A stretch of 64,000 nt of DNA. It comes from Candidatus Bathyarchaeia archaeon (GTDB lineage: Archaea; Thermoproteota; Bathyarchaeia; TCS64). The notes under the pieces were generated by a model, which saw nothing but the letters and a program-made list of their open reading frames with translations, was not told the origin of the DNA and searched no databases. The translations under genes and the position numbers were made by a program. How positions within the stretch are numbered: the first letter of the stretch is position 1; every line of letters begins with the position of its first letter. This document shows, piece by piece, positions 32,511-61,154 of the stretch. The stretch spans positions 1 to 64,000 of the forward strand of contig JBEKDF010000013.1 of assembly GCA_050014495.1 (NCBI GenBank). Direction: 5' to 3'.

Positions 32511-32535
32511 GGTTGTCTCAGATGACATAACCTTA

Positions 32536-33627: not shown

Positions 33628-33996
33628 ATGCAATCCAATTATGATATGGTTAAATCAAATAATCAATCTAGGTCTTATACTAGAAGAAATTTAGGCTCAA
33701 GCAAGTCTGATAATTATTTCATTGAGTACTATAAAAACATAGCAAAGCCAAAGCGTGGTATCGTAATGAGCAGGGAAGAATATTTGGCTTGTTGCTCATT
33801 TAAGACACTTCATAAACAGTTATGCAAACTCTATCATCAGAAAATAGATATTACAGAGCGGATGGATAAACTGAATATTGAAATTGATTCGGTTATAAAA
33901 ATTATTGAGAAAAATCCTAATATCCCACTCTATTCAATGTATACATTAAAAAATGAAGAATGGAATATGGGTGAGAGTGAAGTAAAAGTTGTATAG
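33628..33996 (+). CDS. Hypothetical protein
   Basis: 122-aa ORF overlapping the next gene. Confidence 0.6.
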   Translation: MQSNYDMVKSNNQSRSYTRRNLGSSKSDNYFIEYYKNIAKPKRGIVMSREEYLACCSFKTLHKQLCKLYHQKIDITERMDKLNIEIDSVIKIIEKNPNIPLYSMYTLKNEEWNMGESEVKVV

Positions 33997-35705: not shown

Positions 35706-35987
35706 ACCATATATCTATATTTCTAGACAGTAGAAGCCACACAAACCATACAGGTGGATGTGCATCCTTTTCCTAGTATTGAAGAAACCTTACATATAAG
35801 TTGTTATGAGTTTTCAACAATATTTGTAATGAATATAACAGAAAAAACAAGAAAAAAGAGAAAAGAGTTGCGCACCTTTTCACTTATATTATTATATGGC
35901 GACAGGTATATTGATCAGGTATCGCAACTCTTTCGTGCTAGGGTTTAATAGTGGACAATATCACTATATATACCGTAGGGTCAAAGG

Positions 35988-46776: not shown

Positions 46777-49098
46777 TCATCTCAGGAGGATACGCCGCTT
46801 CTCTGGTGGCATCTTACCCATCTTCTTCACCTGCTCTGTGAAGTCCGAGATAAATTTGGGGAGCATCTTAAAGATAGGTAACACCATGGGCTGGAGGCGT
46901 ATCCTATCCGGCTCTATACCGAATCCCTTCAAGGACTCAGAGACATCAGCAACGAGCTTCGCTGCTAGCTCGGCCTCGTGGCTCTCCTCCACCTCGCATA
47001 TGAGTACTCCGTCGGCACCAAGCCCTATCGCTTTCAGGATGGTTTCCTTGCTCAGGAGCGCAGTCGAGGGCATCCGAACGATCCTGATGTTAGTCGGGTA
47101 ATGAAGCCTCGCCGTGCCTGCATTGTCAGCTGCCGTGTAGCTGATGTTGTCATCAAAGAAGCCAAGCACCGCAATGTCGCCCTCAGTCCCTGAGAGGAGG
47201 CCCTTTGCCTCCTCCAGCAGGGCGTCCCCTGAGTTGTTAGGTATTCTTAATGAGCCTTTGGGGCACACTGGTATGCAAGCACCGCAGCCGTTGCAACTCA
47301 CAGAATCGAGTATAGGTCCCTCGTCGCCCATCGTCAACGCGCCCCTGACGCAGGCGTCCATGCAGGCACCGCAGAGGTCGCACCCCCCCTCATGGATTGG
47401 CTTGTCTGGGCTCAGCTTGATTGTGCCGTCCCCGACGAAGTTATAAACGTGGCTCGCTGCGGCCCTCGCGTCGACCACCGAGTCGTGTATGTCCTTTGTC
47501 CCCGTGGCGACGCCAACAGCGAAGACGCCCTCCCTAAGCGTCGAGATCGGGTCTAGCTTCACATGCTTCGGGGCCACGAAGAGGTCCTCCCCGAGGGCAA
47601 TGCCAAGGCGGGAAGCGAGCTCGCTCGTCCCCGCGGAAGGGACCATGGCAGAGCTGAGCACGACGAGGTCGACGGGGTTTCTCAGCATGAGCCCCGTGTC
47701 TAGGTCCTCGACGGTTATCTCGAATCTCCCATCCTCGAGGGGTGTGACGCCACCGGGCTTCGCGTGTATGAACTGGATCCCTTTCTCGCGGGCCTCCCTG
47801 TAGAAGTCCTCGAACCCACGCCCGGTCATACGCATGTCCGTGTAGTAGATGTAGACCTTGAGGAATGGCAGGAACTTCCTGAGTAATATCGCCTGTTTAA
47901 CGGAATAAGCGCAGCAAACGCTGCTGCAATAGCCTACGCCGTGGTGGGAGTCGCGGCTCCCTGCGCAGAGAACATATGCGATGGACTTGACTCTATCACC
48001 GTTCCCACGCGTCAGAACCTTCCCCTCAGTGAGCTCGTTCTCGATGATTCTCTCCACCTGCAGGGCGTTCACGACACCGCTCATCTCGGGGTGGTATGTG
48101 CGGAGCACCTTGTTCCCGATGAGGTCGAAGCCTGTTGCGACTATCATCGACCCAGCGTCGACTGCGACAATCTTCTCCTGATCGTCCAGGTCAATCGCGT
48201 CGACCGGGCACGCCTCAACGCAGGCCCCGCATCGTTTGCAGTGCTCGAAGTCGATCGCGTAAGATGATGGCACGGCCTGCGGGAAGGGGAGATAGGCTGC
48301 TTTCCGCTTGTACAGCCCTTCCTCGAACTCGTCCTTCACCTCGGTCGGGCAGACCTGGCTACATCGCCCGCATTTGAGGCACTTTTCGATATCGACACCT
48401 CTCGATGTGACCCTGACCTTGATGTGGTAATCCCCCGGACCACCCGACACGGATGCGACATTGGCACCCGTCAGAAGGGTGATGTTCTTGTCGTTCCCGA
48501 CCTCAGCCATGCGTGGGCTTAGTATGCATGGGCTACAGTCGAGTGTGGGGAAGGTCTTGCTCAGCTGTGCCATGCGCCCGCCTATGCTGGAGCGGCGTTC
48601 CACTAGGCTTACCTTAAACCCACCCTTGCTGAGCTGGAGGGCGGCGGTTATCCCCGCGACGCCCCCGCCGATGACGAGCACGTCCCTGTTTATCTTGACG
48701 ACCTTCTCCTCCAATGGCTCAAGGGTACGCGCACGCGCGATGCCACCCTTGACCAAGCTTACAGCCTTCTCGGTGGCTCCTCTTTCATGGACCCAGCTGC
48801 ATTGCTCCCTCAGGTTGACATGGACGAGTCTATGCTTGTTGATGCCGACCTCCTCGACTACGCCCCGAAACATCTCCTCGTGCATGTGGGGACTGCAGCA
48901 GGCAACAACGACCCTGTCCAGCCCGTGAGTCTTTATGCTGTCCTGTATTAGCTGTATACCTGGCTTGGAGCAGAGGAACTCGGTGACCTGCGCCGTCTTG
49001 ACGTCCCCCTCCCTCTTTACCGAGTCTCGGACCTTCTCGCAGTCCACGGTGCCCGAGATGTTCCCACCGCACTTGCAGATGAATACACCCGTCACCAT
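46777..49098 (-). CDS. hdrA: Heterodisulfide reductase subunit A with fused, Cys-depleted MvhD-like domain
   Basis: CKCGGNI, REQCSWVH, GGGVAG, TFPTLDC, CAGSRD..YCSSVCC, ferredoxin inserts; start taken at MVTG. Confidence 0.93.
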   Translation of the reverse strand: MVTGVFICKCGGNISGTVDCEKVRDSVKREGDVKTAQVTEFLCSKPGIQLIQDSIKTHGLDRVVVACCSPHMHEEMFRGVVEEVGINKHRLVHVNLREQCSWVHERGATEKAVSLVKGGIARARTLEPLEEKVVKINRDVLVIGGGVAGITAALQLSKGGFKVSLVERRSSIGGRMAQLSKTFPTLDCSPCILSPRMAEVGNDKNITLLTGANVASVSGGPGDYHIKVRVTSRGVDIEKCLKCGRCSQVCPTEVKDEFEEGLYKRKAAYLPFPQAVPSSYAIDFEHCKRCGACVEACPVDAIDLDDQEKIVAVDAGSMIVATGFDLIGNKVLRTYHPEMSGVVNALQVERIIENELTEGKVLTRGNGDRVKSIAYVLCAGSRDSHHGVGYCSSVCCAYSVKQAILLRKFLPFLKVYIYYTDMRMTGRGFEDFYREAREKGIQFIHAKPGGVTPLEDGRFEITVEDLDTGLMLRNPVDLVVLSSAMVPSAGTSELASRLGIALGEDLFVAPKHVKLDPISTLREGVFAVGVATGTKDIHDSVVDARAAASHVYNFVGDGTIKLSPDKPIHEGGCDLCGACMDACVRGALTMGDEGPILDSVSCNGCGACIPVCPKGSLRIPNNSGDALLEEAKGLLSGTEGDIAVLGFFDDNISYTAADNAGTARLHYPTNIRIVRMPSTALLSKETILKAIGLGADGVLICEVEESHEAELAAKLVADVSESLKGFGIEPDRIRLQPMVLPIFKMLPKFISDFTEQVKKMGKMPPEKRRILLR

Positions 49099-49099
49099 G

Positions 49100-49972
49100 T
49101 CAGACACCCACCTTCCCGAGGAGAGCTTGGACTCCAACCGAGTTCACGTCGAAGCCCAGCTTCGATGGGTCAATGCCCAGCGCAAGGCCGAGTAGCTGGG
49201 GATAGTAGAGAACAGGAAGGCCAAGCTGAATCCCGAGCTCCTCCTCTAGAGTCTTCTGGTACTTATCATACATTATCCCGCAGAAGGGGCAGATGACGAC
49301 CATGGCGTCAGCCTTCCCGGATAGCTTCGCGAGCTTCTTCCCGGTCATCGCTTTCGCTATATCTTCCCGGACTGCCAGTATCCCGCCCCCACAGCAGTCG
49401 GTCTTCCCCTGGTAATCGAGGGCCTCCGCCCCCGTCGCCTCGACGAGCCTATCAAGGGTACCGGGGAACTCGGGGTCGTCGAAGCCCAGGTAGAGGGTTG
49501 ACGGTCGGACGTAGTGGCACCCAGGGTGAGTAGCGATCCTCAGGCCCTTGAGTGGCTTCACGACCCGTGCCCGAATATTATCGAGACCGTAGTCGTCATG
49601 GAGCATACGAGCGAAGTGTATCACCCTCGGCTTCTCCCCAGCGTAGGCTAGACCCGCCTGTGTGAGGATCTTACAGACGCCCTTAGTGGCCTCAGCATCC
49701 TCTCCGAGCCTTTTCTCGGCCTTACTAAGCATCTCGCCACATGCAGAGCATAAAGTAACGAGGGCATCATCGCTCTCTGACGCTATCTTCAGGTTAGCAG
49801 CAGCCATCGATAATGCCTTGACCTCATCCACCGGCTCCACTGGGAAACCACAGCAGCCATAGCCACCGTCGACGAACTCGATGCCAAGCACCCTCGCAAC
49901 CTCCCTCGCAGATTGCTCGTAGTTCATCTGCCGGGTTGGAATCGTGCACCCGAGGAAGAGACTGTATCTCAT
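49100..49972 (-). CDS. hdrB: Heterodisulfide reductase subunit B
   Basis: FLGCTIP, two CCG domains, HPGCH, CPFC, PVLYYPQLLGLA. Confidence 0.95.
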   Translation of the reverse strand: MRYSLFLGCTIPTRQMNYEQSAREVARVLGIEFVDGGYGCCGFPVEPVDEVKALSMAAANLKIASESDDALVTLCSACGEMLSKAEKRLGEDAEATKGVCKILTQAGLAYAGEKPRVIHFARMLHDDYGLDNIRARVVKPLKGLRIATHPGCHYVRPSTLYLGFDDPEFPGTLDRLVEATGAEALDYQGKTDCCGGGILAVREDIAKAMTGKKLAKLSGKADAMVVICPFCGIMYDKYQKTLEEELGIQLGLPVLYYPQLLGLALGIDPSKLGFDVNSVGVQALLGKVGV

Positions 49973-50454
49973 GCCTTCGCCTCTGATATGCGCTTTATGA
50001 ATTCGAGATCCGACTCGACAGCAGGCAGACCACGGTCACCTCTCTCCTCGTTTGTGAAGTCGTCGATCGAGTAGACTCGCCCGTTCCGACTCAGGACATT
50101 GAGGAGCTTCGAGAGGTTAGCGGGGGCCACACCCTCCTTCGCTGCCATGTTTCTTAAGACGGTCATTACTTCTGGTGGGCGTACATCCTGAGGGCATCTC
50201 TCGAGGCAGATGAAGCACATACTACATAGCCAGATAGTATCACTCGAGAAGACTTGCTTCTTCAGCCCCATCTTAGCTAGCTTCATTATCCGCCGTGGGC
50301 TGAACGAAGCCTCAACTTCCCTAACCGGACATGAAGCGGTACATACCCCACACTGGAAACACTTGCTAAGGTCGCTCGCGCCCAGCTCGGTTTCGAGCCT
50401 CCTCAGGAAACGGGTGTCAACCTCGGAGAGATCCACTACGCTGTCTTGGGCCAT
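49969..50454 (-). CDS. hdrC: Heterodisulfide reductase subunit C
   Basis: CFQCGVCTASCP and WLCSMCFICLERCP. Confidence 0.95.
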   Translation of the reverse strand: MAQDSVVDLSEVDTRFLRRLETELGASDLSKCFQCGVCTASCPVREVEASFSPRRIMKLAKMGLKKQVFSSDTIWLCSMCFICLERCPQDVRPPEVMTVLRNMAAKEGVAPANLSKLLNVLSRNGRVYSIDDFTNEERGDRGLPAVESDLEFIKRISEAKA

Positions 50455-50501: not shown

Positions 50502-50840
50502 CTACGCCTTCTGGGCTTCGTAGATTTCGGTCTTCTTGGTGTACTCTGGTGCCCTCATCTCAACTGCTCCTGTGATTGCCTGTTGCATGCAGTTGTCTAT
50601 ACAAAGATAGCAAAAGAGACACTTAAAGGGCTGATACTCGACCCTCTTCTCTTCTGGAACGACTCTAATAGCCATACTCGGGCAGATGCGCTCGCAGTCC
50701 TGACACTGGTCACACCTATTCATATCCCATGTCAGGGCACCGCGTGTACCAGGTACTGGCGTCGGCTTCTCGAATGGATATTTGACAGTCGCTGGTTTGC
50801 TGAATAGGTTCTTTAGCACTTCTTTTACCATTTCTGGCAT
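50502..50840 (-). CDS. echF: Ech hydrogenase 2x[4Fe-4S] subunit F
   Basis: NLFSKPATVKYP, two CxxCxxCxxxC motifs. Confidence 0.9.
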   Translation of the reverse strand: MPEMVKEVLKNLFSKPATVKYPFEKPTPVPGTRGALTWDMNRCDQCQDCERICPSMAIRVVPEEKRVEYQPFKCLFCYLCIDNCMQQAITGAVEMRAPEYTKKTEIYEAQKA

Positions 50841-50841
50841 G

Positions 50842-51966
50842 TCAGTTTGCCTCCTTAACTTGGACGAAACGTTCTGTGCAGCTTATGCATGGATCTATGC
50901 TATGGATGATTGTCGGGATGTCCGGAACATCATTCCCGATTAGCATCGAAACAAGAGGAGGAATGTTGGCGGCTGTTGGGGTTCTAATCTTGCAGCGATT
51001 CAGCTTGTTTGTGCCGTTTCCCTCGATATAGTAGAAGAGCTCCCCGCGTGGCTGCTCAGTTCTTGCCACTGCCGTGCCCTCTGGGAACTTTTTGTTCTTG
51101 TTGAGCACTGGACCCTCCGGCATCTCCTTTAGTACCCTCTCTATTAGATCTAGGCTCTGGAAAACTTCGTCGTATCTTACGAGCATTCTCGAGTAAGCGT
51201 CTTCTCCTTCGTGGGTTATTGGCTCGAATTCGAGTGCCCCATAGGCTTCGTATCCCATCATCCTTGCATCTGACTTTATGCCACTCCCCCTAATGGTTGG
51301 GCCGACTGCGCCTAGGAAGGATGCTTTGCTCTTTGGTAGGATGCCTCTCCCCTCACACTTAGCTTTAATGGCGGAATCCTTGTAGAAGACTGGTCGAAGG
51401 TTCTCCATTTTCTTCCTGACAATACTTAGATCGTCGACGTAGGCCTTCGCAAGACTCTCGTCGATGTCCTTTCTACATCCACCAATCATATTTGTCTCGA
51501 GATGAATTCGGTGGCCGTTCGTTTTCTCGTTGAGTGTGAGTATAACCTCACGGTCTCGCCAGATCTGCATGAATAGGCTCTCGAAACCAATTGCGTCGGC
51601 GAAGAGGCCGAGCCAGAGGAGGTGACTCTGTAGGCGTTGCAGTTCACTCCAGGCTACACGTATGTATTTAGCGCGGGTAGGGACCTCAGTGTCAGTTATC
51701 TTTTCGATTGCCTCGCTGTAAGTCATGCCGTGAATGTAATTGCATATGCCACAAACTCGTTCGCAGAGGTAGATGTTTCTCTTGTAGTCGTTCAGCTCGC
51801 AGCCTCGCTCTATCCCGCGGTGGACATAACCTAGGTTTGGCACGACGTCGACTATCTTGTCCTCGTCGATGATAAAGCGAAGGTGTACGGGTTCGGGTAG
51901 CACGGGGTGTTGGGGCCCGAATGGTATGACAGTGTACTTGCTCTGAGACATTTTTGCATCACTCAT
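50842..51966 (-). CDS. echE: Ech [NiFe] large subunit (group 4)
   Basis: GPQHP, GYVHRGIE, ERVCGIC, PRGE, RTPT, DPCISCTER. Confidence 0.93.
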   Translation of the reverse strand: MSDAKMSQSKYTVIPFGPQHPVLPEPVHLRFIIDEDKIVDVVPNLGYVHRGIERGCELNDYKRNIYLCERVCGICNYIHGMTYSEAIEKITDTEVPTRAKYIRVAWSELQRLQSHLLWLGLFADAIGFESLFMQIWRDREVILTLNEKTNGHRIHLETNMIGGCRKDIDESLAKAYVDDLSIVRKKMENLRPVFYKDSAIKAKCEGRGILPKSKASFLGAVGPTIRGSGIKSDARMMGYEAYGALEFEPITHEGEDAYSRMLVRYDEVFQSLDLIERVLKEMPEGPVLNKNKKFPEGTAVARTEQPRGELFYYIEGNGTNKLNRCKIRTPTAANIPPLVSMLIGNDVPDIPTIIHSIDPCISCTERFVQVKEAN

Positions 51967-53758
51967 TCCAGTCACACTTCCAGCAGCGACTTGCCTCACG
52001 AAGCGCCTCGTCCTCGTTGTAGCCAAGTTCAACCTCGTCGAAACACTTTACACGCTCTTCTGAGTTTAACTCCCGGCAGATGACCATCTCTTGGAACCTG
52101 ATCTCCTCAATATTCGGGGGGCGACCCACAAATTCGTCCGCCTCGAGGTCGGGGGGAGGGAGGCCTTTGCCACCGAGGCTAACATCTATATTATGTGCGG
52201 CCTTCCTGCCGTCCCTCAGAGCCTCGATGACGCTGCTAGGGCCATAGACGCCGTCACCCCCAGCATAGACACCTGGGAGGTTCGTCTGCATCGTTTCCTC
52301 GTTGATGACTATTCTGCCCTGTCTGTTGACCTCGATGCCAAAGTCGGCGGGTATAACGACTGACTGTCCTATGGCCTTTATGATCGAGTCGACCTCGACT
52401 GTGTACTCGCTCCCCTTTATCGGAACTGGTCTACGCCTACCCGAGTCGTCGGGTGCGCCAAGTTCCATCTGTTGTAGGATTAGCTTGAGGGGCTTCCCAG
52501 CCTCGATCTTCAAGGTGGCAGTGAGATACTCGAAACTGACTCCCTCTTGGAGTGCCCCATTGATCTCGTGGGGAGACGCGGGCATCTCCTTCTCGGTGCG
52601 TCTATAGTACATGACAACCTTACTGGCGCCGAGACGCTTGGAAACTCGGGCGGCGTCTATGGAACTGTTGCCACCGCCAATGATAGCGACCCTGTCACCG
52701 ATGGATGGCGTCTTGTTGTGGACGTTCACTTGGCTGAGGAGCTCACGGAAGTCCATAACGCCCTCGGATTCCTCGCCATCGACACCAAGCTTGTAGCTAT
52801 CCAGTGCCCCTATTGCGACGAAGATAGCATCATGGTCCTTCTTTAGAGTCTTGAGATTTTTAATCTCCTTCTTCGTCTTTAGGGAGACACCCACCTCAAC
52901 TAAACGGGCTTGAATTTCCTCCTCGAGGAGGTCCTTCGGGAGCCTATACTTAGGTATACCCCATAGCATGGCTCCACCACAACGGTCACCTCTCTCAAAT
53001 AGGGTAACCTCGTGCCCGAGCGAACCGAGGAAGTAGGCACAGCTGACGCCGGCAGGTCCTCCACCTACGACTGCGATCTTCTTTCCGGTAGGTTTGGCCA
53101 GCTCCACCTTCCTCCTGAGGCTTGACATCGAGTCTGCCGTGTATCTCTTTAAGAGCCTGATTTGTATGGGTTCGTCGTTTCTTTCCTGACGGCAGCCCTC
53201 TTGACAGGGAGCGAAGCAAACGCGGCCCAAGATTGCTGGTAGAGGTGCGCGCTCGCAGACCGTGCTGTAGGCACTCTGTGGGTTACCCTCAGCTATCTGT
53301 CTGATGTATTTGGGTGCATTAACCATTCCCGGGCATTGTTCACGGCAGCGACCATAGAATCTCTTAATGAAAGGCGCGGGCCCCACTGCCGGTTTCACAA
53401 GCGTCGTGTCTTCAGCGCCCTCGATTGTTAGGAGCTTACCATCAAAGTCGACGCTTATACCTGAGACCTGTATCTTGAATAAGTCTTGTATCTCATTCTC
53501 GAATATGAAAGCAGATGGGTAGATGCTTGTGATACTTGACATGGGCTCCTTCCTTGGGGTCTTGACATGGAAGTTTATTACGTCCAAGTTTAGGGAGAAG
53601 TTGTAGACGTACTCTATTTCATTGTCATGATCGAGAGCAGTTATGGTGATCAGGCGAGCCCCCTGAGCCTTAAGATCATTCAACCTGTTGAACATCTCCG
53701 ACTTCTCAGCCATTATGTTCTCGGTCTTTGACTTTAGCTCAAACTGCTGGGTAGTCAT
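51959..53758 (-). CDS. echD: EchD (NuoC-like) fused to GltD/NfnB-like FAD/NAD(P)H oxidoreductase
   Basis: First ~110 aa EchD-like (RLITIT, SITSIYPSAFIFENEIQDLF); then CREQCP, GRVCFAPCQEGC, GGGPAG, GIPKYRLP, GGGNSSIDAAR, YRRT, EASRCWKC. Confidence 0.88.
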   Translation of the reverse strand: MTTQQFELKSKTENIMAEKSEMFNRLNDLKAQGARLITITALDHDNEIEYVYNFSLNLDVINFHVKTPRKEPMSSITSIYPSAFIFENEIQDLFKIQVSGISVDFDGKLLTIEGAEDTTLVKPAVGPAPFIKRFYGRCREQCPGMVNAPKYIRQIAEGNPQSAYSTVCERAPLPAILGRVCFAPCQEGCRQERNDEPIQIRLLKRYTADSMSSLRRKVELAKPTGKKIAVVGGGPAGVSCAYFLGSLGHEVTLFERGDRCGGAMLWGIPKYRLPKDLLEEEIQARLVEVGVSLKTKKEIKNLKTLKKDHDAIFVAIGALDSYKLGVDGEESEGVMDFRELLSQVNVHNKTPSIGDRVAIIGGGNSSIDAARVSKRLGASKVVMYYRRTEKEMPASPHEINGALQEGVSFEYLTATLKIEAGKPLKLILQQMELGAPDDSGRRRPVPIKGSEYTVEVDSIIKAIGQSVVIPADFGIEVNRQGRIVINEETMQTNLPGVYAGGDGVYGPSSVIEALRDGRKAAHNIDVSLGGKGLPPPDLEADEFVGRPPNIEEIRFQEMVICRELNSEERVKCFDEVELGYNEDEALREASRCWKCDWNE

Positions 53759-53759
53759 C

Positions 53760-54203
53760 TTAGTCCACCTTCTCTCCCTCACTGACTTTCTGGAGTTTCT
53801 GTAAGGCCAGGATAACTCCATCTACGATTGACTCTGGACGAGCCGCACATCCGGGGACGTAAACGTCAACTGGGATCACCTTATCGACACCTCCGAGAGT
53901 GTTGGGGCAATTGTGGAAGATCGCACCACTGCAAGCACATTCACCGACCGCGATGACTACTTTTGGCTGAGGCATTTGGTCGTAAAGGTTCTTCAATACG
54001 TGCTGGTTGCGTTTGTTGGCTGGACCTGTCAGGACCAGAACGTCCGCCTGCTTCGGGTCGCCTATATTGATTATTCCGAAGCGCTCGACATCGAACTTAG
54101 GTGTCAAAGCAGCCAGTATCTCGATGTCGCAGCCATTGCAGCTACCGCAGTCGAAGTGCAGGACCCACGGGGACTTGAGCCGTGCCTTAGTCATTGTCTT
54201 CAT
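53760..54203 (-). CDS. echC: Ech small subunit C
   Basis: KSPWVLH..SCNGCDIE, GECACSG, YVPGCAARP; ATGA overlap with echB. Confidence 0.93.
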   Translation of the reverse strand: MKTMTKARLKSPWVLHFDCGSCNGCDIEILAALTPKFDVERFGIINIGDPKQADVLVLTGPANKRNQHVLKNLYDQMPQPKVVIAVGECACSGAIFHNCPNTLGGVDKVIPVDVYVPGCAARPESIVDGVILALQKLQKVSEGEKVD

Positions 54204-55108
54204 GAGAGAATCACCAACCGGGCTAGGAGCCCAACGATGTTCGCGATTATCAACAGAAAGCCCACTACCCATGTGGTCTTTAACATCGTCTTCCAGTCGA
54301 GCCTTGGATAACTGTTATCGATTACAAGTACGATGAAGAATAGAGCAAATGCGACAACTGCACCCACAACTATCCAAGGAATAGTGATAGCATCAAGCAC
54401 AATGTCCTTTGCCCAAAAGAGGCTAGCGAAGCCAACTAGCAAGGCGACCTTCGTCCAGTGGCAGAGCTCGATGAGGGCAAGTGTATAGCCACTAAATTCT
54501 GTATAGATCCCTCTGACGAGCTCCTGGTGAGCATGACCAGACCCTGATACATCGAAGGGGGACTTCTTCATGTTGATTATAAGCACCGGGATTAGTGCGA
54601 GGAAGGTTAATGGAAGGATCGTTAGCAGTGGTACCGGGACATCAAAGATAGAGCTGACCATGAAGCTCCCTGAGACGAAGAAGATGCTGATCGCTACCAA
54701 GAGCAGTACAGGCTCATAGCTAAGCATCCCGAGAAGCTCCCGACGGGCACCTATATTGCTGTAGGGTGATTTGGAGTTGAACGCGGCCACAATCAAGCAG
54801 AGGTCCGCTATTCCCATAGTGAAGACTAATAGGAGCATATCCTGCCCGAATGCTAGGAGCGCGAAGGCAGCTACGCTGAAGCCGAAGTAGCCGAAAGCTA
54901 GGACAGGTTGAAGACTGCTCGCGATAAACGGCTCCTTGCCCCAAAGCTTGATCGCATCATAGAAAGGCTGTGTTATCGGAGGACCAATGCGGCTCTGCAT
55001 TCTAGCTGTTATCTTCCGGTCAATGCCCATCAGTAGACCGCCAATAAAGGGAGCCAGAATTACTAGGACCACCGGAATGTACGTGCTTAGGTTAGTAAAG
55101 TCAACCAT
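54200..55108 (-). CDS. echB: Ech membrane subunit B (NuoH-like)
   Basis: GIDRKITARMQSRIGPP, SYEP, KSPFD..HQELVRG. Confidence 0.93.
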   Translation of the reverse strand: MVDFTNLSTYIPVVLVILAPFIGGLLMGIDRKITARMQSRIGPPITQPFYDAIKLWGKEPFIASSLQPVLAFGYFGFSVAAFALLAFGQDMLLLVFTMGIADLCLIVAAFNSKSPYSNIGARRELLGMLSYEPVLLLVAISIFFVSGSFMVSSIFDVPVPLLTILPLTFLALIPVLIINMKKSPFDVSGSGHAHQELVRGIYTEFSGYTLALIELCHWTKVALLVGFASLFWAKDIVLDAITIPWIVVGAVVAFALFFIVLVIDNSYPRLDWKTMLKTTWVVGFLLIIANIVGLLARLVILS

Positions 55109-55109
55109 T

Positions 55110-57035
55110 TCAAAGCACCACCGTAATGAACATTATCATGACGAGCAACGCCCCCACAACAGCGCCGTAGTTTAGCACATTAGATTGGCTGAACTCATTA
55201 TCCATGAAGAAGGCCGAAACCTGCATAGGGACCTGGGTGTCCGCCGTCGTCTCGAAGACGTCGGGATTGTCCAATACGTTTTCACCACTGACATACGGGG
55301 ATTTAACCACCCCACCCTTCTTCGACGCTATCAGCGATCCTATAACAAAGATCGCTATGGCACCCACCCAGAATGGGTATATGAGGAAGGTACCAAAGCT
55401 AGTGGAGAAGCTCAAGGTCCCGGCACTCACGTACGCATTATATCCAGCTGGGAGAGCGGGCAACACGATCCCAACGATAACCACCGATGCCCCAGCCCCC
55501 AATACAATAACAAGACCTAGGAGGGAGAACAAAGATATCGAGTAGGGTAGGGGAAGCGTCTCCTCACCAAGCTTCTTCCCAGACTGTGGAAGTACCAGCA
55601 TGTGCCCAAACCACTTCGCGTAATAAAGCGTCGTCGCGGCACTACCTATGAGGACAAGCGTTATTATTATTAGGAATCCGAGTGTAGATGACGAGCTAAT
55701 CGCGTCGATAGCCACCCATTTACCGATAAGCATCCCGAAAGGTGGTAGAAACATACTCAACATACCAATTATCATGATAATTGTCGTGGTTGGTAGCTTA
55801 GCGATGAGCCCCTCCCATTCCTCGATTACACGGGTGTGCACACGATTCTCAACAACCCCCGCACAGAGGAAGAGGAGACCCTTTGAGACGGAGTGGAAAA
55901 TTAGTAGTGTCAGCGCAGCAACATAGCCTAGTGGGTTCTGTGGTGTGCTTATCCCTATGCAGAGGATGATGAGGCCGAGGTTGCCGATCGTTGAGTAGGC
56001 GAGAATACCCTTGGATATTCTCTCGTTTAGGGCGAGAACTGCGGATATCATGAAGGTAAAAGCTCCGACGAGGATAACCCCGAAGCTTAGCGCTGTCCCG
56101 CTAAAAGCTGGAGCAAATCTAAGAAGAAGGAAGATACCTGCGTTCACCATTGTGCTGGAGTGGAGAAGCGCTGAGACTGGGGTTGGTGCCACCATTGCGC
56201 CCTGCAGCCACTTGTTGAACGGGAACTGTGCGGACTTCGTAAAGGCCGCGAATGCTAGCGCAGCGAATAAGAGAAGAGAGGTACGCGTTAAGGTCGAGTT
56301 TATCAAGGCCTCGATTGAGAGAGTTCCAGCGAAGGTGTAAGCGATGTAGATCGCGGCGACGAAGCCGACGCCACCCAGAAGGTTCATCCAGAGGGCTGTA
56401 AGCGAGTTCCTCACTGCGATATCCGTTTCATCGTGCCTGATCAGTTCGTAACTGCAGAGGGTGGTGACCTCCCAGAAAAAGTAGACCCAGTATAGGCTGT
56501 TGCTGAATACTAGGCCATACATGGCACCGAGGAGGAGTAGCATGAAGAAGAAGAATCGCGGCTGCCTACTCTTCTCAATGTGTAGGTGGTGCTCGTGCTC
56601 ATCCATGTAGCTGAGGGCGTATACGACAATGAGTGAGCCCACAATTCCTATGATCAAACTCATAATAAGCGAAAGTTCATTGACGATGATCAAAGGCTCG
56701 ACGGCCATTCCGCCTAGACCAAACTCAAAATAAGCCACTGGGACCAATTGCAATAAGGCGAGTCCGATGACCAGTAAGTTATTGTTCTTTAATCCAGCGT
56801 AGAGGAAGTAAACCAAAAGCGCGAGATCAAGAACCAAGATAACACTTTCGAAAATCGGCGCTGGTTGATATGAGAAGCCACCCCCCTGGAAAAGCAATAG
56901 GGATGAACCTATGAGAACAACAGCGGTCAGCGCTACTATGATCCTTCTAGCCACCTTTATGTTCAGGGCATAACAAGAGAGGCCCGCCAAAGGCGGGAAA
57001 ACCACCGTCAGGGCAATGAGAGCATCTCCGTTCAT
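55110..57035 (-). CDS. echA: Ech antiporter-like membrane subunit A
   Basis: FFWEVTTLCS, TKSAQFPF, AMVAPTPVSALLHSSTMV, HSVSKGLLF. Confidence 0.93.
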   Translation of the reverse strand: MNGDALIALTVVFPPLAGLSCYALNIKVARRIIVALTAVVLIGSSLLLFQGGGFSYQPAPIFESVILVLDLALLVYFLYAGLKNNNLLVIGLALLQLVPVAYFEFGLGGMAVEPLIIVNELSLIMSLIIGIVGSLIVVYALSYMDEHEHHLHIEKSRQPRFFFFMLLLLGAMYGLVFSNSLYWVYFFWEVTTLCSYELIRHDETDIAVRNSLTALWMNLLGGVGFVAAIYIAYTFAGTLSIEALINSTLTRTSLLLFAALAFAAFTKSAQFPFNKWLQGAMVAPTPVSALLHSSTMVNAGIFLLLRFAPAFSGTALSFGVILVGAFTFMISAVLALNERISKGILAYSTIGNLGLIILCIGISTPQNPLGYVAALTLLIFHSVSKGLLFLCAGVVENRVHTRVIEEWEGLIAKLPTTTIIMIIGMLSMFLPPFGMLIGKWVAIDAISSSSTLGFLIIITLVLIGSAATTLYYAKWFGHMLVLPQSGKKLGEETLPLPYSISLFSLLGLVIVLGAGASVVIVGIVLPALPAGYNAYVSAGTLSFSTSFGTFLIYPFWVGAIAIFVIGSLIASKKGGVVKSPYVSGENVLDNPDVFETTADTQVPMQVSAFFMDNEFSQSNVLNYGAVVGALLVMIMFITVVL

Positions 57036-57425: not shown

Positions 57426-58775
57426 TTGGATAAGTATATTGAGAGCGTCTATAACGGCATCGTTGAGAAGGACCCCCTCCAGAAGGAGTTCCACCAGGCC
57501 GCATACGAAGTTCTGACTACAATCGAGCCCGCGATCAAGAAGTTCCCTCAGTACAAGGAGAACAAGATTCTTGAGCGATTCGTCGAGCCCGAGAGGTTGG
57601 TTCAGTTCCGTGTTCCCTGGAAGGATAAGAATGGAGAGATCCAGATCAACCGCGGCTATAGGATTCAGTTCAACTCTGCTATCGGTCCATACAAGGGTGG
57701 CTTCAGGTTCCACCCAACTGTGAATCTCAGCATTCTAAAGTTCCTGGGACTTGAGCAGATTTTAAAGAACAGCCTTACAACCCTCCCGATGGGTGGCGCG
57801 AAGGGTGGTTCTGATTTCGATCCAAAGGGCAAGACTGATGCTGAGGTCGAGAGCTTCTGCACTAGCTTCATGCTTGAGATCTTCAGGCATATTGGCCAGT
57901 TCACGGACGTCCCCGCCGGCGACATCGGTGTGGGTGGACGAGAGATCGGCTACATGTATGGCGCATACCGTAAGATCACCAACCAGCACGGTGTTGGTGT
58001 TCTCACCGGCAAGGGTATTCCCTTCGGTGGCAGCCTCATCAGGCCAGAGGCCACTGGCTATGGTGCAGCCTACTTTACCGAGGAGATGCTGAAGACCAAG
58101 AAGGACTCCTTCAAGGACAAGGATGTCCTCATCAGCGGCTCGGGCAACGTCGCCCAGTACGCTGCCGATAAGGTCATGCAGCTCGGAGGAAAGGTAGTCA
58201 CCCTCAGCGACTCGGACGGTACGATCTACATGCCTAAAGGTCTCACAAAGGAGCAGTGGGACTTCATGATGGAGCTGAAGAACGTCAAGAGGGGCAGGAT
58301 CAGCGAGATGGCTGAGAAGTTCAAGGGCATTGAATACAAGAAGGGCGCGAAACCATGGGGTTACAAGGGCCATGTTGCCATTCCCTGTGCAACTCAGAAC
58401 GAGTTAATTGGCAAAGAGGCTGAGAAGCTCGTTGCCGACGGTATCCTCGCCGTCACTGAGGGCGCTAACATGCCTTGCGACTTGAAGGCCATCGAGATCT
58501 TCCAGAAGGCGAAGGTCCTGTATGCACCCGGCAAGGCGAGCAACGCAGGCGGCGTAGCCACGAGTGGCCTCGAGATGTCTCAGAACAGCCAACGCTACTT
58601 CTGGACTCGCGAGGAGGTTGACGAGAAGCTTCACGCAATCATGGTGGGCATCCACAAGAACGCATACGACACCGCGAAGCTCTTCGGTCAGCCCGGAAAC
58701 TACGTAGTTGGTGCAAATATCGCAGGCTTCCTTAAGGTTGCCGATGCGATGATTGCCCAGGGCCTCTACGCTTAA
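57426..58775 (+). CDS. gdhA: Glutamate dehydrogenase, NADP-specific type
   Basis: GPYKGG.RFHP, GGAKGGSDFDP, DVPAGDIGVG, RPEATGYG, GSGNVA. Confidence 0.96.
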   Translation: MDKYIESVYNGIVEKDPLQKEFHQAAYEVLTTIEPAIKKFPQYKENKILERFVEPERLVQFRVPWKDKNGEIQINRGYRIQFNSAIGPYKGGFRFHPTVNLSILKFLGLEQILKNSLTTLPMGGAKGGSDFDPKGKTDAEVESFCTSFMLEIFRHIGQFTDVPAGDIGVGGREIGYMYGAYRKITNQHGVGVLTGKGIPFGGSLIRPEATGYGAAYFTEEMLKTKKDSFKDKDVLISGSGNVAQYAADKVMQLGGKVVTLSDSDGTIYMPKGLTKEQWDFMMELKNVKRGRISEMAEKFKGIEYKKGAKPWGYKGHVAIPCATQNELIGKEAEKLVADGILAVTEGANMPCDLKAIEIFQKAKVLYAPGKASNAGGVATSGLEMSQNSQRYFWTREEVDEKLHAIMVGIHKNAYDTAKLFGQPGNYVVGANIAGFLKVADAMIAQGLYA

Positions 58776-58777
58776 AC

Positions 58778-58805
58778 TCTTTATTTTATTTCTTTTTATT
58801 TCTTC
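58778..58805 (+). terminator. T-rich archaeal terminator-like tract after gdhA
   Basis: TCTTTATTTTATTTCTTTTTATTTC directly after the stop. Confidence 0.5.
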
Positions 58806-58930
58806 AATACTTCAATCATTTTCCTTGCATCGGTTTTTCCCTTTAATCAATATTGTCAGTTAGGGTTGTCAATGTAATTACAACATGTACAGGTTTTTAT
58901 AGTATTAACCCACAATACTGTGATCCCTTC

Positions 58931-59749
58931 ATGTACGGTATAGTGCGGAAGGAGAAGCTTACGTCAAACATCAAGCTATTTGATGTCACCGCACCAGCGG
59001 TTGCCGCTAAATCGAGGCCGGGTCAATTCGTGATTCTGCGCATTCATGAACGTGGGGAGAGATTTCCTATAACGATAGCGGACGCCAACCCCAAAAAAGG
59101 CACGGTAACCATCATCTTCGCAGAGGTGGGTAAATCCTCAACCCAGCTCGGGAAGCTCGAGATAGGGGACTCAATACTGAACTTCTCGGGACCCCTAGGG
59201 AACGCGACCAAAATACAGGAATACGGTGATATCCTCTGCGTGGGCGGGGGCGTGATGGCGGGTGCCCTACTGTACCAAGAGAAGGCATTAAAAAAAGCAG
59301 GAAATCGAATAACCACGATCCTGGGGGCGAGAAGCAAGGATCACATCATCCTCGAAAAGGAGCTACGGAAGATTAGCGACGAATTTCACATAGCCACAGA
59401 CGACGGATCAGAGGGCCACGAAGGCATAGCCTTCTTAGCAGAGATGTTGAAGGAGAAGAAATTCTCCCACGCGATCACAATCGGACCGACGAGCATGCAG
59501 ATGATAGTCTCCGAGATGACCAGACCCTACAAAATACCAACGACGGTGAACCTGTTCCCCATAATGGTGGACGGAACGGGAATGTGTGGAGCCTGCCGTG
59601 TAACAGTTGGAGGAGAGACACGCTTCGCCTGCGTCAATGGCCCCGACTTCGATGGCCATCAGGTAAACTACGACGAACTCATCAGCCGCATGAGGTTCTA
59701 CAACCCCAACGAGAAGATTGCTATGGTCCTATTCGATGGAGGTGACTGA
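58931..59749 (+). CDS. nfnA: NfnA/SudB-like FAD/2Fe-2S subunit
   Basis: PGQFVILR, GERFPITI, GPLGN, MVDGTGMCGACR, CVNGPDF. Confidence 0.9.
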   Translation: MYGIVRKEKLTSNIKLFDVTAPAVAAKSRPGQFVILRIHERGERFPITIADANPKKGTVTIIFAEVGKSSTQLGKLEIGDSILNFSGPLGNATKIQEYGDILCVGGGVMAGALLYQEKALKKAGNRITTILGARSKDHIILEKELRKISDEFHIATDDGSEGHEGIAFLAEMLKEKKFSHAITIGPTSMQMIVSEMTRPYKIPTTVNLFPIMVDGTGMCGACRVTVGGETRFACVNGPDFDGHQVNYDELISRMRFYNPNEKIAMVLFDGGD

Positions 59750-59750
59750 T

Positions 59751-61154
59751 TTGGCGCACCGGAAACCACAGGCCGAGATGCCAAAGCAGGCAGTTGAGCA
59801 AAGGATACATAATTTCGACGAGGTGGCACTAGGTTACATAGAGGAGTTAGCCCTAATGGAGGCGGGAAGGTGCCTCAACTGCCCTAAGCCCCAGTGCAAG
59901 AAGGGGTGCCCAGTTGAGGTACCAATCCCCGAGTTCATACAACTCATCAAGGATCATAAATTTCTGGAAGCGGCTAAGAAGCTCAAGGAGAAGAATGCAC
60001 TGCCAGCTGTTTGTGGTAGGGTCTGCCCACAAGAGGAGCAGTGCCAGAAGTTCTGCGTCCTGGGGGTCAGAGGAGACCCCGTGGGCATAGGACGTCTCGA
60101 GAGGTACGCCTCAGACTGGGAAAGGCTGAACGCGAAACTAGAGTCCCAGACTACTCTACAGATAAGCGGAAAGGTTGCTGTCGTAGGCTCCGGTCCAGCT
60201 GGTTTGACAGTAGCAGCGGATCTAGCAAAGATGGGACACAAGGTCACAATCTTCGAGTCTCTACACACCGCGGGGGGTGTGCTGATGTATGGGATACCGC
60301 AGTTTAGGCTCCCGAAGGAAATAGTCCAGATGGAGGTCGAGTACGTGAAAAGCTTAGGGGTTGAGCTCCGTCTTGACTCCACAGTGGGACTTCTATCCAC
60401 GATACAGGAACTAATGAATGATGGCTACGATGCAGTCTTCATAGGCTCGGGAGCGGGGTTACCCAACTTCCTCCATGTCCCCGGGGAGAACCTCAAGGGC
60501 ATATATTCAGCTAACGAGTTCCTGATACGTACGAACCTCATGAAGGCATACAAATTCCCCGAATATGATACGCCAATTCGTGTGGGGAAGAATGTAGGGG
60601 TCGTGGGGGCTGGCAACGTCGCTATGGACTCTGCACGCTGCGCCCTGAGGTTGGGAGCTGAGAGAGTTCACATAATATACCGTAGGAGTAGGGAGGAGAT
60701 GCCTGCAAGAGCAGAGGAGGCAGAGAATGCTGAGGAAGAGGGCATTGAGTTCAACCTCCTCACTAACCCCGTCCGCTTCATAGGAAACGAACGTGGCTTC
60801 CTGGAGAAGGTAGAGTGTGTGAAACAGCGTCTAAGCGAACCTGATCAGTCTGGGAGGCGCCGACCGGAACCCATCGAGGGAAGCAACTACACTATCGACA
60901 TCGACACTGCGGTCATAGCCATCGGGCAGTCACCCAACCCAATAATCCAGCAAACGACCGCTGGCCTCCAGATAACACGCCATGGGACAATCGTCGTCAA
61001 CGAGGATACGATGCAGACCGCCATTCCGGGAGTCTATGCAGGAGGCGATGTGGTCAGCGGTGCAGCGACCGTCATAAGTGCTATGGGGGCAGGCAAAAAG
61101 GCCGCTAAGGCGATACACGAATACATAATTACTAAGGCCTTGAATGGAGGTTAG
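59751..61154 (+). CDS. nfnB: NfnB/SudA-like (GltD-family) subunit
   Basis: RCLNCPKPQC..CP, GRVCPQEEQC, GSGPAG, GAGNVAMD, YRRS; GGAGGTGA SD before the TTG. Confidence 0.92.
   Translation: MAHRKPQAEMPKQAVEQRIHNFDEVALGYIEELALMEAGRCLNCPKPQCKKGCPVEVPIPEFIQLIKDHKFLEAAKKLKEKNALPAVCGRVCPQEEQCQKFCVLGVRGDPVGIGRLERYASDWERLNAKLESQTTLQISGKVAVVGSGPAGLTVAADLAKMGHKVTIFESLHTAGGVLMYGIPQFRLPKEIVQMEVEYVKSLGVELRLDSTVGLLSTIQELMNDGYDAVFIGSGAGLPNFLHVPGENLKGIYSANEFLIRTNLMKAYKFPEYDTPIRVGKNVGVVGAGNVAMDSARCALRLGAERVHIIYRRSREEMPARAEEAENAEEEGIEFNLLTNPVRFIGNERGFLEKVECVKQRLSEPDQSGRRRPEPIEGSNYTIDIDTAVIAIGQSPNPIIQQTTAGLQITRHGTIVVNEDTMQTAIPGVYAGGDVVSGAATVISAMGAGKKAAKAIHEYIITKALNGG

What the first reader, a model, noticed from the sequence alone, without database searches (positions are those of the whole stretch)
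51959..53758. EchD fused to a GltD/NfnB-like flavoprotein inside a complete ech operon
Seen: echA-B-C-[D+GltD]-E-F with tight or overlapping junctions and one continuous ORF. The flavoprotein part has FAD and NADPH-type motifs (GGGNS..YRR) and FeS cysteines, with the first cluster apparently completed by the C-terminal RCWKC. Established: canonical six-subunit Ech exchanges electrons only with ferredoxin. Inference: an ion-translocating hydrogenase with a built-in NADP(H) module, either direct H2:NADP+ coupling or a bifurcating arm with NfnA. I know of no characterised example.
Basis: partly seen in the sequence, partly recalled or inferred. Interest (0 to 1): 0.78.

Follow-up and report, generated by a model that had tools for sequence, protein, structure and literature searches.

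The report
Ech hydrogenase with fused NADPH module
A membrane-bound, ion-pumping nickel-iron hydrogenase of an uncultured peat archaeon has an NADPH-binding iron-sulfur flavoprotein fused to one small core subunit, so it probably exchanges electrons with NADPH directly, which no studied enzyme of this type is known to do.

Summary
Window 53758..51959 (minus strand) is one 599-residue ORF. It joins a complete EchD/NuoC domain (about residues 9-122) to a GltD/NfnB-like flavoprotein (about 133-599), inside a tight echA-B-C-[D+GltD]-E-F operon.

The fusion is not an assembly artefact. It recurs as one open frame in the same gene order in 22 Bathyarchaeia loci, 1 Hecatellales locus, 4 Dehalococcoidia loci and 1 Planctomycetota locus. 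It is present in 44 of 301 sampled Bathyarchaeia genomes.

The flavoprotein is circularly permuted, and its C-terminal RCWKC supplies the first cysteine pair of the Fe-S domain. Its closest solved relatives are the NADPH-input domains of NfnA (Bfu type) and StnC, not NfnB.

At the non-cysteine ligand of the FAD-proximal cluster it has an invariant lysine (K204), as in the non-bifurcating StnC/NfnA. Bifurcating NfnB has glutamate there.

My best reading (0.55) is a plain NADPH dehydrogenase module wired into the Ech Fe-S chain, the way the N-module sits on complex I. That would give an ion-coupled NADPH:H+ (H2:NADP+) oxidoreductase. A bifurcating arm with NfnA is disfavoured.

The wiring, direction and ion coupling are inferred, not shown. 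Seven full-text literature searches found no description. This scan has already flagged the same design three times in other genomes.

The parts
55110..57035 (-). echA: antiporter-like (NuoL/MrpA-type) membrane subunit, 641 aa
   Evidence: Pfam Proton_antipo_M E 2.3e-50. Conserved at this position in related loci.
54200..55108 (-). echB: NuoH-like membrane subunit, 302 aa
   Evidence: Pfam NADHdh E 9.5e-44.
53760..54203 (-). echC: NuoB-like [4Fe-4S] small subunit, 147 aa from the ATG at 54203 (the ORF is open up to 54272)
   Evidence: Pfam Oxidored_q6 E 1.2e-30. The start is chosen because it abuts the echB stop.
53393..53758 (-). Fusion protein, residues 1-122: complete EchD/NuoC (30 kDa) domain including its own C-terminal tail motif (TLVK)
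   Evidence: Pfam Complex1_30kDa 39.3 bits. BLASTP to a free-standing 127-aa EchD of a Syntrophales ech operon: residues 13-122 against 2-114, E 7e-13. AF2 pLDDT is 81-92 (10-residue block means) over residues 11-100.
53114..53362 (-). Fusion protein, residues 133-215: second half of the GltD-type Fe-S domain (C138, C142, C181, C185, C189, K204)
   Evidence: Pfam Fer4_20, profile positions 31-108 only. The cysteines and K204 are invariant. K204 aligns with StnC K170 (PMC10482914 section 9).
52154..53113 (-). Fusion protein, residues 216-535: FAD and NADPH Rossmann domains (GGGPAG, R272, GGGNSSID, YRR)
   Evidence: Pfam Pyr_redox_2 E 6e-30. Alignments to 9bov_A, 9n5u_A, 8oh5_C, 4ylf_B and 5jca_L. 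Foldseek top hits are the same chains.
51959..52153 (-). Fusion protein, residues 536-599 plus stop: permuted first half of the Fe-S domain (FDEVELGY...RCWKCDWNE; C592, C595)
   Evidence: Aligns to N-terminal residues 9-43 of Tm NfnB and to residues 509-567 of the NfnA/StnC chains. C592 and C595 are invariant.
50842..51966 (-). echE: [NiFe] large subunit, 374 aa, L1 and L2 motifs intact
   Evidence: Pfam Complex1_49kDa and NiFeSe_Hases. Motifs. The best solved relative is P. furiosus Mbh subunit L, 6cfw_L, 257.6 bits.
50502..50840 (-). echF: NuoI-like 2x[4Fe-4S] subunit, 112 aa, eight invariant Cys
   Evidence: Pfam Fer4 families. 22-sequence alignment A2.
46777..50454 (-). hdrC, hdrB and hdrA (HdrA2-like with a fused MvhD domain). 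They begin 47 nt downstream of echF on the same strand. This neighbour is specific to the closest clade and is not part of the core unit.
   Evidence: NCBIfam and Pfam. Present after echF in 5 related loci (L004-L007, L009). Absent in L010, L013, L025 and L032.
57426..61154 (+). gdhA, nfnA and nfnB, divergently transcribed from echA: a conserved NADP(H)-related neighbourhood
   Evidence: Pfam and NCBIfam. gdh and/or nfnA(B) lie upstream of echA in 12 of the 14 related loci that include upstream DNA.

Best explanation
This is a six-gene Ech-type (group 4) energy-converting [NiFe] hydrogenase. Its small EchD/NuoC subunit has a complete, non-bifurcating NADPH dehydrogenase module fused to it, holding FAD and two [4Fe-4S] clusters.

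Proposed mechanism. NADPH gives a hydride to the FAD. The two electrons then leave one at a time through the Lys-ligated proximal cluster and the distal cluster of the module. They pass into the EchF and EchC clusters and on to the [NiFe] site in EchE. There, proton reduction (or H2 oxidation in reverse) is coupled to ion movement through EchA/EchB.

The module would thus do for Ech what NuoEFG does for complex I and FpoF does for Fpo. The result would be an ion-coupled NADPH:H+ (H2:NADP+) oxidoreductase.

In a peat archaeon at low H2, the likely direction is NADPH oxidation to H2. That would dispose of NADPH made, for example, by the neighbouring glutamate dehydrogenase.

What is shown: gene order, a single ORF, domain content, conserved cofactor ligands, family placement and distribution.

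What is inferred: the electron path from the module to EchF, NADPH over NADH, the direction, and the ion coupling.
For: 1. Single ORF in a tight operon. There is no separate echD, so the module is stoichiometric with the complex.

2. The same echA-B-C-[fusion]-E-F order appears wherever the contig reaches, in 22 of 22 Bathyarchaeia loci (L004-L025) and in Planctomycetota L032. It also appears in Dehalococcoidia L035, L036, L041 and L042 and in Hecatellales L046. In L035, L036, L041, L042, L046 and L032 the fusion scores above the Pfam cut-off for Complex1_30kDa and also carries Fer4_20 and Pyr_redox_2.

3. The closest solved chains are the NADPH-input domains of Csac NfnA (9bov_A, 361 bits), Tsi NfnA (9n5u_A, 346) and StnC (8oh5_C, 300). 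These score ahead of NfnB/NfnL (271, 263) and GltD (179). Foldseek on the AF2 model gives the same order.

4. In those enzymes the FAD is described as a plain NADPH entry point feeding a linear cluster chain (PMC10482914 section 9; PMC11829005 passages; PMC12018979 passages).

5. K204 aligns with StnC K170 and is invariant in 36 of 36 sequences and 12 of 12 distant members. The window's own NfnB has Glu at that position.

6. The seven Cys, R272, YRR and both Gly-rich motifs are invariant in the same sets.

7. A free-standing EchD ends 13 residues after the position that aligns with K122, and the first cluster cysteine of the module is C138. The Fe-S domain is therefore tethered directly at the native end of EchD, not on a long flexible linker.

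8. The 12 fused modules form one clade (FastTree support 0.92) among 157 permuted GltD modules. This points to one origin followed by spread across Archaea and Bacteria.

9. The same permuted module is fused elsewhere to many other redox domains: NuoG-like, molybdopterin, SdhB-like, OYE, DHODH and RnfB-like. That fits a portable NADPH plug-in.

10. gdhA and nfnAB, both NADP(H) enzymes, sit divergently next to echA in 12 of 14 loci with upstream DNA.

11. The genome has HypD and can therefore mature [NiFe] sites.
Against: There is no biochemical or expression evidence. No listed run holding this stretch is on record as RNA.

I could not measure the distance from the module's distal cluster to the EchF clusters. 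No coordinates are given out, and the complex prediction was not run.

The AF2 model has pLDDT below 50 for residues 110-130, so the relative position of the two halves is not predicted.

NADPH to H2 is endergonic under standard conditions (E0' -320 against -414 mV, textbook values). Pumping in that direction needs low H2 and a reduced NADP pool.

The synteny with gdh and nfnAB comes from related genomes and may be inherited rather than selected. It is missing in L020 and L032.

Lys in place of Glu is a correlate of non-bifurcation in three solved enzymes, not a proven determinant. PMC12018979 says its functional meaning is unclear.
Confidence: 0.55

Rival explanations
1. Two-donor enzyme. Ferredoxin still docks at EchF while NADPH enters at the fused module. 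The complex would then either confurcate (reduced ferredoxin plus NADPH to 2 H2) or act mainly as a ferredoxin:NADP+ oxidoreductase, with the [NiFe] site as an overflow.
For: EchF keeps both clusters and is otherwise an ordinary NuoI/EchF protein. Canonical Ech is ferredoxin-linked (textbook knowledge; also stated for group 4 in PMC7886697). No ferredoxin:NADP+ link other than NfnAB was seen in this window; Rnf was not searched for in the genome. NfnAB, which also links ferredoxin and NADPH, is a conserved neighbour.
Against: No feature that marks a bifurcating or confurcating site was found. The ligand is Lys, not Glu, and there is no NfnA-like or BfuBC-like partner in the operon. Electron flow from ferredoxin to NADP+ would bypass the [NiFe]/coupling site, so the membrane subunits would have no role.
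Confidence: 0.2
2. Docking platform for a soluble bifurcating partner. The fused module, or Ech as a whole, hands electrons to the complex encoded just downstream. That is HdrA2-MvhD/HdrBC here, and a NuoE/NuoF/FdhA-like Bfu complex in L010. Together they would form a membrane-anchored supercomplex.
For: hdrCBA follows echF after 47 nt on the same strand, and does so in 5 related loci. L010 has a Bfu-type formate-dehydrogenase-like set in the same place. HdrA here carries an MvhD domain, which in Mvh-Hdr connects a hydrogenase to HdrA (recalled, not tested). GltD-like modules lie next to HdrA-like genes in many deltaproteobacterial loci.
Against: The downstream genes vary and are absent in most fused operons, including L013, L025, L032 and the Dehalococcoidia loci. 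Whatever the fusion does must work without them.
Confidence: 0.1
3. The module is intact but uses a different partner or purpose: NADH in place of NADPH, an unknown small-molecule acceptor, or a redox-sensing or assembly role with no net electron flow to the [NiFe] site.
For: Nucleotide specificity and electron flow are read only from motifs shared with NADPH enzymes. GltD-family modules serve many different enzymes.
Against: The YRR motif and all cofactor ligands are invariant across members only 40-50% identical. That argues for a working NADPH-type catalytic module. The five closest solved relatives that carry this motif are the NADPH-binding subunits of NADPH-oxidising enzymes.
Confidence: 0.1

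Closest known systems
Ech, the six-subunit energy-converting [NiFe] hydrogenase (echABCDEF, group 4)
   Same: Same six homologous genes in the same order. [NiFe] motifs are intact, EchC has one cluster and EchF two, and there are two membrane subunits. A Syntrophales ech operon with a free EchD has an EchE about 50% identical. That is as close as the bacterial fused operons.
   Different: EchD is not a free protein of about 125 aa. It is the N-terminal fifth of a 599-aa protein that adds FAD, an NADPH site and two more [4Fe-4S] clusters. Canonical Ech is known only with ferredoxin as partner.
NADPH-input domain of StnC / NfnA in the Bfu-type transhydrogenases (PDB 8oh5_C, 9bov_A, 9n5u_A)
   Same: Same circular permutation, same Lys ligand on the FAD-proximal cluster, and the same FAD and NADPH motifs. 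These are the best sequence and fold matches. In those enzymes the FAD is non-bifurcating and feeds a linear cluster chain.
   Different: In those enzymes the module sits between an N-terminal [2Fe-2S] domain and a NuoG/Fdh-like domain, and feeds a soluble BfuBC bifurcating core. Here those parts are missing and the module hangs on a membrane hydrogenase subunit.
NfnB/NfnL of NfnAB (NfnSL), the bifurcating NADPH subunit (PDB 4ylf_B, 5jca_L)
   Same: Same fold and cofactor set, about 37% identity. A true NfnAB pair is encoded 1-3 kb away.
   Different: NfnB is not permuted, uses Glu where this protein has Lys, and needs NfnA as the second exit for electrons.
N-module of respiratory complex I (NuoEFG) and FpoF of Fpo
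   Same: The same logic applies: a soluble dehydrogenase module added to the NuoB/C/D/I-type peripheral arm turns a hydrogenase-like scaffold into a nucleotide- or cofactor-linked pump.
   Different: The protein families are unrelated (GltD-type FAD here, NuoF-type FMN there). Attachment is by gene fusion to NuoC. The catalytic site is still a [NiFe] hydrogenase, not a quinone site.
GltD-related flavoprotein reported in mbx-like operons of Thermotoga and proteobacteria (Degli Esposti 2015, PMC4758237; passage seen)
   Same: A GltD-type NAD(P)H flavoprotein is proposed, from genomics alone, as the nucleotide site of a group-4-related membrane complex.
   Different: There it is said to replace NuoI in complexes whose NuoD has only vestigial [NiFe] cysteines. 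Here NuoI/EchF is kept, the [NiFe] site is intact, and the flavoprotein is fused to NuoC. I did not examine those operons.

Membership tests
Ech-type group 4 energy-converting [NiFe] hydrogenase | Six genes homologous to NuoL/NuoH/NuoB/NuoC/NuoD/NuoI in the order echABCDEF | tested here: met
   Pfam and NCBIfam on all six ORFs. The order is conserved in 22 of 22 Bathyarchaeia loci and in 6 other loci.
Ech-type group 4 energy-converting [NiFe] hydrogenase | [NiFe]-binding L1 (C[GS][ILV]C[AGNS]xxH) and L2 ([DE][PL]Cx[AGST]Cx[DE][RL]) motifs in the large subunit | tested here: met
   EchE has CGICNYIH and DPCISCTER. Motif definitions are as quoted in PMC7886697.
Ech-type group 4 energy-converting [NiFe] hydrogenase | EchD is a small free-standing subunit without cofactors | tested here: not met
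   EchD is residues 1-122 of a 599-aa Fe-S flavoprotein.
Ech-type group 4 energy-converting [NiFe] hydrogenase | Ferredoxin as redox partner; ion translocation | not testable with these tools
   Needs enzyme assays.
Ech-type group 4 energy-converting [NiFe] hydrogenase | HydDB subgroup (4e against 4g) of the large subunit | not tested
   No classifier or reference set was on hand. The best solved relative is Mbh subunit L, 6cfw_L.
StnC/NfnA(Bfu)-type permuted GltD-like NADPH module | Circular permutation: the first Cys pair of the Fe-S domain lies C-terminal to the flavin domains | tested here: met
   Residues 538-596 align to 509-567 of 9bov_A and 8oh5_C, and to the N-terminus of NfnB.
StnC/NfnA(Bfu)-type permuted GltD-like NADPH module | Lys ligand of the FAD-proximal [4Fe-4S] cluster (StnC K170, Tsi NfnA K165) | tested here: met
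   K204 aligns with K170. It is invariant in 36 of 36 and 12 of 12 sequences. Ligation itself is inferred.
StnC/NfnA(Bfu)-type permuted GltD-like NADPH module | N-terminal [2Fe-2S] domain, C-terminal NuoG/Fdh-like domain, and BfuB/BfuC partners | tested here: not met
   None of these domains is in the protein or the operon.
NfnB/NfnL (bifurcating subunit of NfnAB) | Glu ligand of the proximal [4Fe-4S] cluster | tested here: not met
   The fusion has Lys there. The window's own NfnB has Glu (GRLERY).
NfnB/NfnL (bifurcating subunit of NfnAB) | Arg hydrogen-bonded to flavin N5 (Tm R201) | tested here: inconclusive
   The residue is conserved (R272 = StnC R239). However, it is conserved in non-bifurcating StnC too, and the deciding distance cannot be read from sequence.
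NfnB/NfnL (bifurcating subunit of NfnAB) | Dedicated NfnA/NfnS partner giving a second electron exit | tested here: not met
   There is no NfnA-like gene in the ech operon. The neighbouring nfnA overlaps its own nfnB.

The most novel reading that the evidence does not exclude
A second, independent invention of the complex I idea. A nucleotide dehydrogenase module, here a GltD-type NADPH module joined by gene fusion to NuoC, is bolted onto a hydrogenase scaffold that still makes or uses H2. That would give an ion-pumping NADPH:H+ oxidoreductase. Abundant sediment and peat archaea (Bathyarchaeia), and some Dehalococcoidia and Planctomycetota, could then conserve energy from NADPH-yielding fermentations at low H2. 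With the membrane potential they could also push H2 out of NADPH, or make NADPH from H2. No ferredoxin would be needed.
Probability: 0.4. Interest if true: 0.85.

Novelty: new variant of a known kind. Interest (0 to 1): 0.68.

Why it matters
Ech-type hydrogenases are treated as ferredoxin-only enzymes in metabolic reconstructions. If this widespread variant takes NADPH directly, three things follow.

1. It would add a new coupling site between the NADP pool, H2 and the membrane potential.
2. It would change energy and redox budgets drawn for Bathyarchaeia. [quoted passage not shown]
3. It would give a living analogue of how a nucleotide-dehydrogenase module could have been recruited onto the hydrogenase ancestor of complex I.

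The question is directly testable. The fusion protein is soluble in design and could be expressed alone.

Tried and rejected
**Assembly or frameshift artefact.** Rejected. There is one open frame in 28 independent loci. Contigs of three other runs lie on the stretch without indels.

**Identity with the 'novel energy-converting hydrogenase' of Bathyarchaeia (Loh et al. 2021, PMC7886697).** Rejected. That is an 11-subunit Fpo-like complex (Hfo). The passages I read do not mention NADPH, glutamate synthase or a fusion.

**NfnB-type bifurcation.** Considered and put aside on the Lys/Glu position, the permutation and the lack of a partner.

**Docking of the module (residues 106-599) on EchF.** There is no verdict, and I did not repeat it.

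**Expression.** No RNA holder was listed for the stretch.

**Gene-context script.** My first run used an out-of-frame echE. It was redone correctly.

**Search for the locus of P0126.** P0126 is a sister protein with a dicluster domain in place of EchD. The search did not find its locus. It returned the Dehalococcoidia and Hecatellales fused operons and many unrelated GltD modules.

**Papers not available.** The Schoelmerich and Muller review (PMC11636919) is not held. Supplements of the Bathyarchaeia papers, for example Text S4 of PMC11697101 on its 'ECH' genes, were not opened and could mention the fusion.

**Literature searches that found no description:**. One search was on Stn/Nfn only.
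Full report
**The observation**

On the minus strand of the window lies a tight gene row:
- echA, 57035..55110
- echB, 55108..54200
- echC, 54203..53760
- a 599-codon ORF, 53758..51959
- echE, 51966..50842
- echF, 50840..50502

Gaps and overlaps are 1 nt, 0 nt, 1 nt, an 8-nt overlap and 1 nt.

Pfam and NCBIfam name the six products as follows:
- NuoL/antiporter-like
- NuoH-like
- NuoB-like
- a protein holding Complex1_30kDa (residues 24-100, 39.3 bits against a cut-off of 22.5), Fer4_20 (137-211) and Pyr_redox_2 (227-517)
- NuoD/[NiFe] large subunit
- NuoI-like

EchE keeps both [NiFe] motifs (CGICNYIH, DPCISCTER). EchF keeps eight cysteines.

**Not an artefact**

Homologues of the same length with the same three Pfam families fill the list of the 120 best-scoring clusters. 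Where named, almost all are labelled Bathyarchaeota.

A pattern scan of species-representative genomes returned 22 Bathyarchaeia-type loci with the fusion. Two of them are filed under bacterial bin names, probably by mis-binning. tblastn with the window's proteins shows echA-B-C-[fusion]-E-F in all 22, as far as each contig reaches.

Contigs of three further peat runs cover 51900-53900 with at most one substitution and no indel. One contig spans the domain junction. These are contigs, not raw reads.

**How widespread**

In an even sample of 301 genomes of the class, including this one:
- 44 have a match that begins at or before residue 25 of the query. One of these is cut by a contig end.
- 4 more have high-identity matches truncated at contig ends.
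- All lie in two families.
- Three genomes have two copies.

In a sample of 401 genomes of the phylum, 3 of 32 genomes of a family outside the class also have the fusion.

Among clusters at 50% identity of 1.84 billion proteins, 4 of the best 150 representatives are NuoC+GltD fusions. One is labelled Verstraetearchaeota, and one cluster contains a Planctomycetota protein.

The Planctomycetota locus L032, four Dehalococcoidia loci (L035, L036, L041, L042) and a Hecatellales locus (L046) have the same operon with the same fused protein.

In a FastTree of 157 permuted GltD modules rooted on the window's NfnB, the 12 fused modules fall in one clade of 14 (support 0.92). The two others in that clade are an N-terminally truncated fragment and a protein with a dicluster domain in place of EchD. 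I left out representatives shorter than 440 aa and one sequence whose matched stretch was under 330 residues. This is one invention that has moved between Archaea and Bacteria.

**What the flavoprotein half is**

Against all PDB sequences the scores are:

| Chain | Protein | Bits |
|---|---|---|
| 9bov_A | Caldicellulosiruptor NfnA of NfnABC | 361 |
| 9n5u_A | Thermococcus sibiricus NfnA | 346 |
| 8oh5_C | Sporomusa StnC | 300 |
| 4ylf_B | NfnB | 271 |
| 5jca_L | NfnL | 263 |
| 2vdc_G | GltD | 179 |

Foldseek with the AF2 model (mean pLDDT 83.7) ranks the same chains first.

The match to NfnA and StnC runs through to residue 596. The last 35 residues match the N-terminus of NfnB. The Fe-S domain is therefore circularly permuted exactly as in StnC/NfnA, and RCWKC provides its first cysteine pair.

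Seven cysteines are invariant in 36 homologues (138, 142, 181, 185, 189, 592, 595), and C168 is not. Seven Cys for two [4Fe-4S] clusters calls for one non-Cys ligand.

**The test for a bifurcating FAD**

I read section 9 of the Stn paper (PMC10482914) and passages of the T. sibiricus and C. saccharolyticus papers (PMC12018979; PMC11829005). They state three things:
- The FAD of StnC/NfnA does not bifurcate. It passes electrons from NADPH down a linear cluster chain.
- Its proximal cluster has a Lys ligand (K170 in StnC, K165 in Tsi NfnA).
- NfnB/NfnL has Glu at that position.

By the HMMER alignment, K170 corresponds to K204 of the fusion. K204 is invariant in 36 of 36 close members and 12 of 12 distant members, bacterial ones included. 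The window's own NfnB has Glu there.

The N5-proximal Arg (R272) is conserved, but it is conserved in both classes and cannot decide the question.

On the residues that can be read from sequence, the module belongs with the non-bifurcating NADPH-input modules. The authors themselves call the meaning of Lys against Glu unclear, so this is a correlate and not a proof.

**How the two halves are joined**

A Syntrophales ech operon (L062) has a free EchD of 127 aa. It aligns with residues 13-122 of the fusion (E 7e-13) and ends 13 residues later. In the fusion the first cluster cysteine is C138.

The flavoprotein therefore starts where a normal EchD stops. The conserved 'TLLKP' stretch, which AF2 leaves at low confidence (residues 110-130), is EchD's own tail rather than a free linker. 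The module's Fe-S domain must sit close to EchD on the peripheral arm.

I could not test whether that places it within electron-transfer distance of EchF.

**Context**

Divergent from echA lie gdhA, nfnA and nfnB. One or more of these are in the same place in 12 of the 14 related loci that include upstream DNA, and not in L020 or L032. These loci are relatives, so the count overstates independence.

Downstream of echF, after 47 nt, come hdrC, hdrB and an HdrA2-like hdrA with an MvhD domain. This holds for 5 close loci only. L010 has a NuoE/NuoF/FdhA-like set there instead, and L013, L025 and L032 have unrelated genes.

The genome also holds two other group-4-type large subunits, three further [NiFe] large subunits and HypD.

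**Mechanism**

The best-supported reading is an NADPH dehydrogenase module hard-wired to Ech. Electrons would run from NADPH to FAD, then to the Lys-ligated cluster and the distal cluster, then to the EchF and EchC clusters and finally to the [NiFe] site. Ion translocation by EchA/B would be coupled to this, and the whole path would be reversible.

From textbook potentials (NADP+ -320 mV; H+/H2 -414 mV at 1 bar, about -270 to -300 mV at 1-10 Pa), NADPH-driven H2 formation is uphill at high H2 and downhill by a few to about 20 kJ/mol at peat-like H2. The membrane link could therefore serve either to harvest or to supply the difference. Direction and stoichiometry are open.

The rivals are:
- a two-donor or ferredoxin:NADP+ role
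- a platform for the downstream Hdr or Bfu complexes
- another nucleotide, or a non-catalytic role

**Novelty**

The parts are known families. The combination is not described in the texts I could search:
- The Bathyarchaeia papers I opened speak of Hfo or of 'ECH' without noting a fusion.
- The T. sibiricus paper lists the hosts of NfnL-like domains without Ech or NuoC.
- The nearest precedent is a genomic note on a GltD-like subunit in mbx-like operons (PMC4758237).

Supplements and non-held reviews were not seen.

This scan has reported the same design three times in other genomes. My results agree with those notes. They add the Lys/Glu test, the single-origin tree, the junction analysis against a free EchD, and the variable downstream partners.

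Noticed in passing
L002 (G000:C14:75785-79147), ORF 1402-3072: A second group-4 hydrogenase in the same genome. Its large subunit is fused to NuoC (a 556-aa NuoCD-type protein with CGICGSVH and DPCISCAER motifs). It is preceded by a NuoH-like gene.
   Followed up: partly
G000:C5:23581-25055: A third group-4-type set with a separate NuoC (open frame 172 aa) and a large subunit (open frame 479 aa). It may be the Fpo-like Hfo complex described for Bathy-6.
   Followed up: no
window 28000-36700: A stretch of low G+C (30-37% against about 50% elsewhere). Seven ORFs of 122-605 aa in it have no Pfam match. It may be foreign or mobile DNA.
   Followed up: no
window 345-5880: Two MtmB-like methyltransferase genes flank a corrinoid (B12-binding) protein gene, followed by a RACo-type corrinoid activator gene. 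This is a methyl-transfer module.
   Followed up: no
window 62608-63969 and G000:C13:67403-68623 (beyond the window): An MvhD/FlpD-domain Fe-S protein at the window's end, and a further [NiFe] large subunit about 4 kb beyond it. This is probably an Mvh-type hydrogenase cluster close to the ech-hdr row.
   Followed up: no
L010:11474-16515: In a relative whose fusion protein is 83% identical, the place of hdrCBA after echF is taken by NuoE-like, NuoF-like and FdhA-like genes. That is a Bfu-type formate-dehydrogenase-like set.
   Followed up: partly
L044, L045, L047, L053, L054, L079, L092: Permuted GltD-like modules lie between HdrA-like genes, often with hdrB and hdrC, in deltaproteobacterial, Dehalococcoidia and Anaerolineales MAGs. 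This is a recurrent Hdr-linked use of the same module.
   Followed up: no
L062 and L081 (Syntrophales MAGs): A canonical ech operon with a free 127-aa EchD. A separate GltD-like gene lies about 2.7 kb away and nfnAB a further 2-3 kb on. This is an unfused neighbourhood resembling the fused one.
   Followed up: partly
P0126 (607 aa): The closest non-fused relative of the module carries an N-terminal Fer4_11 dicluster domain where the fusion has EchD. Its genomic context was not found.
   Followed up: partly
L015 and L018: Two loci with Bathyarchaeia-like ech operons (52-62% identity) come from MAGs labelled Patescibacteria and Krumholzibacteriaceae. These contigs are probably mis-binned.
   Followed up: no
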